A stretch of DNA of 63,802 nucleotides, the filler included, from Chrysochromulina tobinii (taxonomy: Eukaryota): assembly GCA_001275005.1 (NCBI GenBank). It is 12 parts of 12 records of this genome, joined end to end, with 100 filler letters (N's around TTAATTAATTAA, not from the genome) between each part and the next. Parts side by side here need not be neighbours in the genome. Positions count along the whole stretch, not along the records: positions 39,317 to 54,014 come from JWZX01000312.1; 11 more parts are not named here. One strand, 5' to 3'. How positions within the stretch are numbered: the first letter of the stretch is position 1; the number at the start of each line of letters is the position of its first letter. The notes beneath the pieces were generated by a model, which saw only the letters and a program-made list of their open reading frames with translations, was not told the origin of the DNA and did not search any database. Below are positions 48,801 through 51,282 of this stretch, piece after piece. The position numbers and the translations under genes were made by a program.

Positions 48801-51282
48801 TCTGATGACCTCTGATGACTTCACAGATGATTGTTTGGGTGGAGCTCACGTACGACCAGAAGAAGATGTACCGCGCCGTGCTGGAGAGCCGTCGCGACGT
48901 GCTGCTGCACGGGGTGGAGAACGCGCCGCTCCCGTCGCTGATCAATCTCCAACTCGAGCTGCGCAAGTGTTGTAACCACCCGTGAGTCTCGTCAATTGCC
49001 TCTTGATGGCCTCTGATCAATTTCCAACTCGAGCTGCGCAAGTGTTGTAACCACCCGTGAGTCTCGTCAATTGCCTCTTGATTGCCTCTGATCAATCCGT
49101 ACCTTCTCCGGGGCTCCTCGCATGCAAGTCTTGCTCACCACGGCGCGCTCCACCCCCCCCCATTCGTGTTCCCCACAGGTACCTCATACGTGGCGTCGAG
49201 CAATCGATGACGAACCACAAGACAGCGGCGGAGGTGCGCGAGGCGATGCCCCACCCCCCTCCCCGGCCGCATGCAAGTGCTCACCACGGCGCCGCGTCGC
49301 CCCGCTCTCCCCACAGGTACGCGAGGCGATGCCCCACCCTCCTCCCCGCCGCATGCAAGTGCTCACCACGGCGCCGCGTCGCCCCGCTCTCCCCACAGGT
49401 ACGCGAGGCGATGCTCGCGGCCAGCGGCAAGCTCGTGCTGCTCGATAAGCTGCTACCGAAGCTACGATCAGAGGGACGACGCGTGCTCATCTTCTCGCAG
49501 GTGTGCTGATTGAGATTGATTGAGATGGATTGAGATTGATTGACATGGATTGAGATTGATCGGAGGGACGACGCGTGCTCATCTTCTCGCAGTTTACGAT
49601 GATGCTCGCGCTGCTGGGCGAGTTTCTCGACGCCCGTGGCTTCTCGTACGTGCAGCTCGACGGCTCGGTGACCGGCGACGCTCGGCAGGCGGCCATCGAC
49701 CGCTTTTGCAAGCCCGGCTCGTCCATCTTCGCCTTCCTCCTCTCGACGCGCGCGGGCGGCGTCGGCATTAACCTCATCGCGGCCGACACCTGCATCATCT
49801 TCGATAGCGACTGGAACCCGCAGAACGACGTGCAGGCCATGGCTCGTTCACACCGTATTGGTCAGCAGAAGATCGTCAAAGTGTTCCGTCTCGTCACGCG
49901 CAACACGTACGGCGCTCCCAAATTTGGAAGATTCGTCAAGGTCGCTCGGCATGCAAGTGCTCACCACGGCGCCCCCTCCTCCCCCTAATTAGGTACGAGG
50001 CGGAGCTCGTCAAGGCCGCGAACAAGAAGCTCGGCCTCGAACGCGCCTTCAACGCCGACCAGGGCGCTGGAGGCGCTGTCGCGGGCGGCACCGACGACCC
50101 AACGGCCGATGAGCCAACGGCCGACGGGACGCTCATCGACGGTGGCGGAGCGGCCAACGGTGTGAAATCATACAACGGCCCACCGCGCGACCGGGCGGCA
50201 GTTGAGCGCATGCTACGCTGCGGTGCGCAAGACATCATGCTCGACGACGACAGCGCGTTTCGTCGATTCTCTGAGGCGGACATAGATTCCCTGTTGCAGA
50301 GTTCCGTCAGTTCCGTCACGACGAGCGCTGCGACGAGCGCGTCGGCCGGCGGCGGCGGCTCGAGCTTCGCCAAGGTCGCCTTCATCGCCGACGGCGCGCA
50401 GATCGACATGGGCGACCCGGAGTTCTGGGCCAAGGTGCTGCCCGCCGACCTGGTCGAGCCCGGCATGGAGGTAGAGGTAGATGTAGAGGTAGATGCGCAT
50501 CCCCGCCGAGCGCCCACCGCCCTGCCCCGCATGCAACTGCTCACCACGGCGCCCGTCCCTCGTTCCTGTCGTTCCCCACAGGTCGAGGGCATCCCCGCCG
50601 AACGCCCTCGACGGGCTGCTGGGGTGGCCGCCCAGAAGATGCGCTGGTACGTTTATGGCGGCTGATTGCGACTGATGGCGACTGATTGCGACTGATTGTG
50701 TGGCCGCTCAGAAGATGCGCTGGTGCGCTGATTGCGACTGATTGCGACTGATTGCGACTGGTTGCGACTGATTGCGACTGATTGGGTGGCCGCCCAGAAG
50801 ATGCGCTGGTACGCCGCGGTGGAGGCGGGCCTCCCTCCGCATGCAAGTGCTCACCACGGCGCCCGCCCCTCGTTCCCCACAGGTACGCCGCGGTGGAGGC
50901 GGGCCTGCCTCCGGAAAAGGCCAAAGGCGCTGCAGTGGGCGCTGCGGGGGCGTCTGCCAAGCGAAAGCGCCCACCGCAGCGCGACGCCGACGGCGACGAG
51001 GAGGGTGAGATGGATGAGGCGGCGCTCGTCGAGGATTGCGGGGAGTGCACCAACTGCCTCGACAAGCGCAAGTTCGGAGGGCCGGGCCTCAAGAAGCAGA
51101 AATGCAAGGTGCCTGTGCCTGCGGGGACGCGCGCCGCCGTGAGCACCGCCGCCTCCCCCTCCGCCCCCTCCTCCGCCGTCCCCCTCGAAGCTAAGGCATG
51201 GGCAGGAGCAGCGGAAGGGGGGCGCCCGCAGCGGGGGGGGGGCAAGCGCCGTAGCTACGCGGAGTTGGACGAGTGGGAGTAA
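42898..51282 (+). CDS. CHD-family (CHD6-9-like) SNF2 chromatin remodeler, 17 exons, ~2100 aa: Tudor-like, two chromodomains, ATPase, helicase-C, partial CXXC finger
   Basis: Manual splice with introns 43633-43725, 44416-44497, 44575-44739, 44974-45205, 45387-45487, 45535-45604, 45876-45955, 48149-48348, 48443-48528, 48741-48826, 48982-49178, 49234-49398, 49501-49592, 49907-49992, 50471-50581, 50647-50882. This restores [84 protein letters not shown] and TRNTYE. Confidence 0.9.
45876..45955 (+). other. class A intron with exact exon duplication
   Basis: Starts with 33 nt identical to the start of the next exon, then CTGATTACC repeats and CCTCATCAG. Confidence 0.9.
48443..48528 (+). other. class B GC-AG intron with exon duplication
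   Basis: GCACGCCGCTCCAAAA(A/T)AGCACCACGGAG copy of the next exon, GCATGCAAGTGCTCACCATGGCG core, CCCCACAG; removal restores LTGTPLQN. Confidence 0.85.
49234..49398 (+). other. two class B introns in tandem with no exon between them
   Basis: 83-nt and 82-nt near-identical units joined at CAG|GT (49316/49317). Confidence 0.85.
49501..49592 (+). other. mirror-class intron ending in a copy of the upstream exon
   Basis: GTGTGC + (GATTGAGATT)n + 35-nt copy of the upstream exon end supplying the CAG; removal restores [11 protein letters not shown]. Confidence 0.85.

What the first reader, a model, noticed from the sequence alone, without database searches (positions are those of the whole stretch)
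49234..49398. Back-to-back introns with a zero-length exon (built-in recursive splice site)
Seen: two near-identical class B units (83 and 82 nt) abut at CAG|GT, each starting GT(G/A)CGCGAGGCGATGC like the next exon. The same layout occurs on the minus strand at 40072-40195 (class A units of 68 and 56 nt joined at CAG|GT, 40128/40127). Inference: insertion regenerates its AG|GT target, so a site can be hit again or duplicated. Removal needs recursive splicing or skipping of the inner acceptor, which is unusual for such short introns.
Basis: partly seen in the sequence, partly recalled or inferred. Interest (0 to 1): 0.72.

Follow-up and report, generated by a model that had tools for sequence, protein, structure and literature searches.

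The report
Stacked introns copied across splice junctions
In a gene of the alga Chrysochromulina, two near-identical short introns sit end to end and both are cut out of the messenger RNA; they likely arose by local DNA copying across a splice junction, a process that appears to be making and stacking new introns in many of this alga's genes.

Summary
Two units (83 and 82 nt) abut at AG|GT in a Chrysochromulina CHD-helicase gene. RNA contigs of four runs lack all 165 nt, and two other assemblies carry the same pair. No single-unit splice product was seen, but contigs drop rare forms. The pair is most likely a local tandem duplication: the units share a 3' tail found in no other of 106 sampled units, and close relatives appear to carry one unit here. 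It works like amphioxus 'mirage' repeats. It is not rare: a metagenome scan gave 20 such loci. Recursive splicing is possible but unproven and not needed, because other stacks lack an inner donor and must be skipped (an NRDE-2 intron; 12 of 34 class A inner junctions). The wider pattern is more interesting. About half of these introns begin with a 10-53 nt copy of the next exon, take their 3' halves preferentially from nearby introns, and differ in presence among close relatives. This scan noted abutting or duplicated introns before on other DNA. Verdict: new variant of a known kind, interest 0.55.

The parts
42898..51282 (+). Host gene: CHD-type chromodomain/SNF2 helicase (both ends inferred from the sequence)
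   Evidence: Pfam Chromo, SNF2-related and Helicase_C on single exons; nearest named hit Prymnesium parvum at 79%; exons 48349-50647 give a 498-aa frame without a stop
49179..49233 (+). Exon upstream of the stack
   Evidence: Covered by RNA contigs in X11, X13, X14
49234..49316 (+). Unit 1 (83 nt): 16-nt exon copy with the outer donor, filler, class B core (49269-49293; putative branch A near 49283), pyrimidine tail, inner acceptor AG
   Evidence: the branch point is inferred from a recalled consensus
49315..49318 (+). Zero-length-exon junction AG|GT between the units
   Evidence: Sequence; present in L012 and L037; use in splicing not shown
49317..49398 (+). Unit 2 (82 nt): 16-nt exon copy with the inner donor, filler, core (49351-49375; putative branch A near 49365), the same tail, outer acceptor
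   Evidence: outer acceptor used in RNA contigs
49399..49500 (+). Downstream exon; its first 16 nt are the original of the copy at the start of each unit
40128..40195 (-). Second site, unit 1 (68 nt, class A) in a PDZ-domain gene
40072..40127 (-). Second site, unit 2 (56 nt): 12-nt exon copy plus the last 42 nt of unit 1, i.e. a duplication across the 3' splice site
   Evidence: removing both units gives the reading of C. parva model P0150; no RNA test
48982..49178 (+). Neighbouring 197-nt composite intron with internal donor copies (49058, 49099) and a duplicated upstream-exon end; spliced from the outermost donor
   Evidence: RNA contigs join 48981 to 49179
48443..48528 (+). Single class B intron with a 29-nt exon copy; filler and tail match the unit at 50809-50882 (likely recipient of a local copy)
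50809..50882 (+). Class B unit with a 31-nt exon copy; likely donor of the filler and tail of 48443-48528
   Evidence: outside the stretch laid with RNA
49501..49592 (+). 92-nt intron whose 3' end is a copy of the upstream exon end; appears absent in close relatives
   Evidence: RNA contigs; unbroken reading across this position in P0004, P0126, P0131, P0132

Best explanation
The 165-nt stretch is a two-unit intron of a Chrysochromulina CHD-helicase gene that is removed completely from the mRNA; it likely arose by a local tandem duplication across the 3' splice site of a single young intron, and it is likely cut out mostly in one step from the outer donor to the outer acceptor. SHOWN: both units are in the DNA and both are absent from mature RNA contigs. 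Each unit is [copy of the next exon's start, giving the GT] + [shared 3' module with a putative branch point and the AG]. INFERRED: because the single intron already began with an exon copy, any duplication spanning its 3' splice site ('mirage' type; slippage, unequal crossing-over or a template switch between the two exon copies) yields two complete abutting introns. INFERRED: every donor-acceptor pairing leaves either the mRNA or a remaining complete intron, so the stack is neutral and persists. The AG|GT junction is a by-product, not a selected ratchet point, and some two-step removal may occur beside the one-step route. INFERRED for the family: such introns are born when a short DNA template switch copies the 3' half of another, often nearby, intron into an exon at a GT and re-copies 10-50 nt of exon.
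For: Origin by local duplication: the 25-nt tail is identical in both units, and the best match among the other 104 sampled units scores 0.72; identical tails occur in 3 of 5244 between-region pairs. Unspliced gene calls from relatives (P0004 at 98% to the query exon; P0126, P0131, P0132 from its cluster) read as ONE 72-nt unit at this position. The second site is an explicit duplication across the 3' splice site. 20 regions carry class B stacks; 6 of 53 non-target neighbouring class B sites and 18 of 53 class A sites are stacked. One-step removal: the only joint seen is the 165-nt skip. The neighbouring 197-nt intron is spliced from its outermost donor past internal donor copies. A three-unit intron in an NRDE-2 gene (L006) has inner junctions AG|GG, so only outer-to-outer removal keeps the frame, and that frame matches an intron-less relative at 84%. 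3 of 6 non-target class B stacks and 12 of 34 class A inner junctions lack GT/GC. Birth model: 38 of 72 last units start with an exon copy (control 2 of 4794); tails are at least 0.9 alike in 15 of 160 same-region site pairs against 15 of 2468 others (permutation p 0.0002). Linked pairs share exon starts, 4 of 8 against 60 of 2407.
Against: No call tests the splicing route at this site: contigs drop rare forms, so the missing 82/83-nt joints are not evidence of absence. The inner acceptor, core and donor are intact, and the inner acceptor is predicted to be as accessible as the outer one (0.63 against 0.63), so nothing local explains a skip. At 50489 the nearest of several GT sites is used, so donor choice is not always outermost. 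The stacks without an inner donor were not tested with RNA, and some automated class A calls may be short real exons or non-coding. The relatives' single unit has a different filler and tail and was read from protein translations only, so turnover or parallel gain cannot be told from simple ancestry. The loci were chosen for class B doubles, so stack frequencies are inflated. The exon-start test used 5 post-hoc definitions (p 0.003-0.03) on small, non-independent pair sets. Cluster members covering the adjacent exon stand on 15 and 13 contigs, but the scan returned this double from only 2; why the rest are missing is not known.
Confidence: 0.5

Rival explanations
1. Same origin by duplication, but the stack is removed mainly in two steps: either recursively (outer donor to inner AG, which regenerates a donor, then to the outer AG) or inside-out (unit 2 first, from the inner donor).
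For: Both units are complete introns of normal local size with intact signals. Fungal complex introns pair the closest sites first (PMC7138796 passages). S. pombe removes a 336-nt intron through a zero-length exon (10.1101/226894 passages). 22 of 34 class A inner junctions do carry GT/GC.
Against: No single-unit joint in 3 RNA runs (weak). Stacks that cannot recurse exist and must be skipped. The junction is not conserved in close relatives. GT/GC at inner junctions (22 of 34) is not above the 63 of 87 seen after all class A acceptors. In Drosophila the exon junction complex represses regenerated donors (PMC8184009 abstract).
Confidence: 0.33
2. Unit 2 (or unit 1) is an independent second insertion of a mobile, introner-like element at a regenerated target.
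For: Other stacks do pair a perfect exon copy with a different tail (L001, L021, L056-5382, L006-5981), so re-hits occur. Marine Chrysochromulina genomes have introners.
Against: Here the exon copy has the same length (16 nt), the filler is nearly the same and the tail is identical and private to the pair. The duplications are long and variable (10-53 nt), unlike the 4-bp duplication described for Chrysochromulina introners.
Confidence: 0.1
3. The double is an assembly artefact, or two alleles merged into one contig.
For: Unit counts differ among assemblies at 5 of 16 target regions seen more than once, so arrays of identical units are assembled unreliably. No long reads were seen.
Against: The two units differ at 3 places, three assemblies agree letter for letter, a DNA contig holds the junction, and the shared stretch has about twice the flanking depth.
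Confidence: 0.04

Closest known systems
[quoted passage not shown]
   Same: The repeat unit is the 3' end of an intron plus the 5' part of the next exon; many units carry AG/GT; normal splicing is not disturbed; unit number is unstable.
   Different: Here the unit is itself a complete 56-90 nt intron, because the parent intron starts with an exon copy. Stacks occur at many loci, and some units take their 3' module from another intron.
Zero-nucleotide-exon recursive splicing (Drosophila ratchet points, 10.1101/006163, first half of the text seen; S. pombe SPNCRNA.445, 10.1101/226894, passages seen)
   Same: A 3' and a 5' splice site side by side inside a removed stretch.
   Different: Drosophila introns are 11-133 kb and their sites are conserved and backed by junction reads and lariats. 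Here the stretch is 165 nt, young, not conserved, and no intermediate was seen.
Introners (10.1101/2022.06.06.494994 / PMC9860276, passages and supplement searches)
   Same: Repeated intron sequence across genes. Some families carry the 3' splice site and take the 5' site from a target-site duplication. Presence and absence among relatives.
   Different: Only the 3' ~45 nt is shared; the duplication is 10-53 nt and variable; donors are biased to the same gene. The Chrysochromulina family figured in that paper has a 4-bp duplication and carries its 5' site.
Intron gain by tandem duplication or break repair, and same-gene intron duplications (PMC3443670, PMC4202315, PMC3609843; passages seen)
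   Same: Direct repeats at new introns, parallel gains at one site, and similar introns within one gene.
   Different: The classical model needs a duplicated AGGT. Here the AG comes from a templated insert (AG precedes the donor in only 9 of 21 cases). Same-gene copies were a minor class in fungi (82 of 1610), whereas here local similarity is strongly enriched.
Fungal stwintrons (PMC7138796, passages seen)
   Same: A complex intervening sequence made of two U2 intron units; in L. starkeyi it can leave in one or two steps.
   Different: Stwintron units are nested. Here they abut and neither interrupts a signal of the other.

Membership tests
Mirage repeats | Tandem repeat whose unit spans an intron-exon boundary (intron 3' end plus exon start) | tested here: met
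   Both sites
Mirage repeats | Regular splicing is not disturbed | tested here: met
   165-nt joint in 3 of 3 RNA runs; main site only
Mirage repeats | Copy-number instability between haplotypes or strains | tested here: inconclusive
   Relatives read as one unit (protein only). Counts differ among assemblies at 5 of 16 regions, which may be assembly error; the focal site has 2 in 3 of 3
Zero-nucleotide-exon recursive splicing | AG immediately followed by GT inside the removed stretch | tested here: met
   49315-49318
Zero-nucleotide-exon recursive splicing | Junction reads from the upstream exon to the inner AG | tested here: inconclusive
   None in contigs of 3 RNA runs at depth 8-10; contigs drop rare forms
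Zero-nucleotide-exon recursive splicing | Lariats to and from the inner site; sawtooth nascent coverage | not testable with these tools
   Only contigs were offered for runs that hold this DNA
Zero-nucleotide-exon recursive splicing | The site is conserved among relatives | tested here: not met
   One unit only in P0004, P0126, P0131, P0132; no break in the reading at this position in P0007 (85%) and P0010 (82%). All read from protein calls; whether P0007 and P0010 come from DNA or RNA contigs is not known
Introners | Many introns similar over most of their length | tested here: not met
   Only the core and tail are shared; the 5' halves are locus-specific exon copies
Introners | Short target-site duplication of fixed length, where one exists | tested here: not met
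   Exon copies are 10-53 nt
Introners | Terminal inverted repeats (some families) | not tested
   No formal test was run
Introners | Presence and absence among close relatives | tested here: met
   49501-49592 appears absent in P0004, P0126, P0131, P0132; P0009, P0133, P0134 read as a class B unit inside what is one exon in the window; the NRDE-2 intron is absent in P0190-P0193. Protein-level evidence only
Introners | An autonomous transposase or reverse transcriptase that moves the element | tested here: inconclusive
   None in 20 of the window's 93 long frames scanned with Pfam; no whole genome is held
Stwintrons | An internal intron nested in the external one, removed inside-out | tested here: not met
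   The units abut; one-step removal gives the same mRNA

The most novel reading that the evidence does not exclude
Chrysochromulina of this lineage is gaining introns now by a transposon-free, self-feeding copy process. A short template switch pastes the branch-point-and-acceptor half of a nearby intron into an exon at a GT and re-copies 10-50 nt of exon, which supplies the donor. Existing junctions offer the longest homology and are hit again, so the genome fills with stacked 60-90 nt introns. Many of these stacks would be removed stepwise, giving the first large natural set of recursive splice sites in very short introns.
Probability: 0.3. Interest if true: 0.8.

Novelty: new variant of a known kind. 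Interest (0 to 1): 0.55.

Why it matters
How new spliceosomal introns arise outside transposon bursts is an open question (PMC3443670). This lineage shows donor, recipient, long duplication, re-hits and strain-level presence or absence side by side, in an alga for which mixed-culture DNA and RNA runs already exist. Stacks with and without an inner GT are a ready-made natural experiment on whether a spliceosome takes short abutting introns one at a time or jumps them. They would also mislead gene callers and introner pipelines that need end-to-end similarity. The single site given is a neutral by-product; the interest lies in the process it reveals.

Tried and rejected
No whole genome is held, so counts rest on 56 fetched stretches (20 regions; 225,592 bases in the representative set including the window), not on a genome census. 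RNA structure as a reason to skip the inner AG: rejected, because inner and outer acceptors have the same predicted accessibility. In-frame retention as the normal product: the 165 nt are 55 codons without a stop, but RNA contigs show removal; keeping one unit shifts the frame. A local source for the odd 5' parts of some second units (L007, L008, L054, L025) was sought in the same locus and not found. Rfam: no match in the window at gathering thresholds. The second site could not be tested with RNA, as both read-laying runs went to the main site. Rows dropped: one search left out 1 of 73 sites (too near a contig end); one search left out 3 of 73 (degenerate or truncated); the same-region count of 6 includes 2 degenerate L025 pairs; the pair counts were not collapsed by array, so one search is used for local similarity. 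Not in print, as far as searched: nine full-text searches listed no paper on stacked or exon-copy introns in Chrysochromulina; only the top 2-30 rows of each were seen. In the PMC9860276 supplement 'tobin' occurs once, in the genome list, and three short class A/B motifs do not occur, but the file was cut when stored. PMC12130899 has no 'Chrysochromulina' or 'haptophyt' in its main text; its supplements were not read. The library lacks most subscription papers.

Full report
What was given. It proposed a built-in recursive splice site made by an insertion that regenerates its target.

Setting. The window is 12 contigs joined by N-linkers; both sites lie on the contig 39317-54014. The main site is in a CHD-type helicase gene (Pfam Chromo, SNF2-related, Helicase_C; nearest named protein Prymnesium parvum at 79%). 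The second site is in a PDZ-domain gene whose exon matches a Chrysochromulina parva model at 100% and a C. tobinii model at 96%. The organism is thus a Chrysochromulina haptophyte. No whole genome is held.

The units are as described, with 2 substitutions and one indel between them, and each begins with a 16-nt copy of the next exon's start. The pattern has 0 matches in 100 shuffles. Two other assemblies, L012 and L037, are identical over 49179-49438. In DNA run X6 a contig holds the junction, and the shared stretch has about twice the flanking depth (62.6 against 31.6 and 38.4). This is weak support by the tool's own rules. At the second site, unit 2 is 12 nt of exon copy plus the last 42 nt of unit 1.

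Both units leave the mRNA. RNA contigs of X11, X13 and X14 show one joint, a 165-nt GT..AG skip that DNA run X6 lacks. X12 shows the same spacing of pieces. No 82- or 83-nt skip was seen, but contigs drop rare forms, so the route is not tested. Keeping one unit shifts the frame; keeping both adds 55 codons without a stop. At the second site, removal of both units (124 nt) reproduces the C. parva model and the reading of many homologues; there is no RNA test there.

Origin of the pair. The 25-nt tail after the core is identical in both units, and the best match among the other 104 sampled units scores 0.72. Gene calls on unspliced DNA of close relatives (P0004, P0126, P0131, P0132) read as a single 72-nt unit at the same position, with a different filler and tail (DNA not seen). 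The simplest reading is a local tandem duplication across the 3' splice site. Since the parent intron already started with an exon copy, such a duplication equals a whole-intron duplication and yields AG|GT by itself (inference). This is the layout of the amphioxus 'mirage' repeats, which span intron-exon boundaries, often carry AG/GT and do not disturb splicing (PMC3087553, passages).

It is a common state in this lineage. One scan of metagenome contigs for two cores joined at an acceptor gave 56 stretches in 20 regions. Among 73 class B sites in representative loci, 26 are stacks of 2-4 units; 20 were the scan's targets and 6 of the other 53 are stacks. Class A acceptors, which the scan did not target, are stacked at 18 of 53 sites. 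These loci were selected for doubles, so the rates are upper estimates. Unit counts differ among assemblies at 5 of 16 regions seen more than once, which may be assembly error. Most stacks are whole-unit copies. Some (L001, L021, L056-5382, L006-5981) pair a perfect exon copy with a different tail, which points to a second templated insertion.

Is recursion needed? No. Any donor-acceptor pairing in the focal stack leaves mRNA or a complete intron (logic of the sequence). Other stacks cannot recurse. A three-unit intron in an NRDE-2 gene (L006; Pfam) has inner junctions AG|GG. Only removal from the first donor to the last acceptor keeps the frame, and that frame matches relatives at 84% that have no break there. 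3 of 6 non-target class B stacks and 12 of 34 class A inner junctions lack GT/GC; GT/GC follows 63 of 87 class A acceptors overall, so stacks are not enriched for inner donors. The neighbouring intron 48982-49178 is spliced from its outermost donor past internal donor copies. Against this: the focal inner signals are intact and as accessible as the outer ones, the nearest GT is used at 50489, and closest-pair splicing is known in fungi (PMC7138796, passages). Zero-length-exon splicing is known in a 336-nt S. pombe intron (10.1101/226894, passages). I put mostly one-step removal at about 0.6 and mostly two-step at about a third. The Drosophila criteria (junction reads, lariats, conservation; 10.1101/006163, first half of text) are not met or not testable here.

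The wider process. 38 of 72 last units start with a 10-53 nt copy of the next exon (control 2 of 4794; 21 of 47 single-unit sites). AG precedes the donor in only 9 of those 21, so the target is a GT, not AG|GT. Tails at least 0.9 alike occur in 15 of 160 same-region site pairs against 15 of 2468 others (permutation p 0.0002), and the best match lies in the same region for 20 of 73 sites against 4.4 expected. In the window, the filler of 48443-48528 matches the exon-copy end of 50809-50882 and the tails are identical, which gives a likely direction of copying. Pairs linked by tail and filler also share exon starts at positions 3-10 (4 of 8 against 60 of 2407; five definitions tried, p 0.003-0.03; no clear excess at positions 11-20 in four of the five), as a homology-guided template switch would predict. 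Close relatives differ in intron presence: 49501-49592 appears absent in P0004, P0126, P0131 and P0132, and P0009, P0133 and P0134 read as an extra class B unit inside one of the window's exons. The mechanism (DNA template switch, against RNA-templated repair or a retro-element) is inferred, not shown. No transposase or reverse transcriptase was found in 20 of 93 long frames of the window, which says little about the genome.

Comparison and novelty. It works like a mirage repeat and may work like a ratchet point; it fails the membership tests for classical introners (no end-to-end similarity, no fixed short duplication) and for stwintrons. Marine Chrysochromulina introners are in print, with a 4-bp duplication in the family figured (10.1101/2022.06.06.494994, passages; PMC9860276 supplement rows). 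Direct repeats and parallel gains are known from Daphnia (PMC4202315, passages), same-gene intron copies from fungi (PMC3609843, passages), and tandem-duplication gain is reviewed in PMC3443670 (passages). The C. tobin genome paper gives about one intron per gene and its one passage with 'intron' does not describe such repeats (PMC4580454, passages). Nine searches listed no paper on these stacks; supplements of PMC12130899 were not read and the PMC9860276 file was cut. This scan has noted abutting or duplicated introns on other DNA; no look-alike of this stretch was on record.

Verdict. A real, RNA-supported stack of two short introns; most likely a neutral duplication across a 3' splice site; recursion unproven and not required. 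New variant of a known kind. Interest 0.55, carried mainly by the intron-birth process that the stacks expose.

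Noticed in passing
L056 (minus strand, about 1-2600): One gene holds at least five class B stacks of 2-3 units within 2.2 kb, several behind class A modules that end in copies of the upstream exon; a local hotspot.
   Followed up: partly
L006 rc 4504-4582 and L008 about 8003-8084: An intron in L008 carries the exon-copy part of an intron in L006, and both downstream exons share their first 9 nt: a likely whole-intron copy between unrelated genes guided by exon-start homology.
   Followed up: partly
window 50648-50882: Composite intron of two class A modules ending in copies of the upstream exon end, followed by a class B unit; only one acceptor. 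Not covered by the RNA laid.
   Followed up: no
window 44574-44739: Class B intron with four core copies but one acceptor: internal duplications that leave out the AG.
   Followed up: no
window 48443-48528: RNA-supported intron with a GC donor taken from an exon copy.
   Followed up: partly
window 39729-39904: Partial class B core copies in both orientations downstream of the PDZ gene, outside any called intron.
   Followed up: no
window 46100-47500, 51260-51410, 53060-53240: Many short tandem duplications in coding and non-coding DNA, which suggests a general duplication-prone genome.
   Followed up: no
L004 5938-6234 and L021 rc 3115-3483: Class A stacks of five acceptors each, with GC or GT inner junctions.
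   Followed up: no
P0132 / P0004, position of window intron 48982-49178: In a close relative this intron reads as two class B cores without the class A modules, so intron content turns over between strains with near-identical proteins.
   Followed up: partly
window 54309-56240 (-): A 643-aa stop-free frame on a short contig, with no Pfam match.
   Followed up: no
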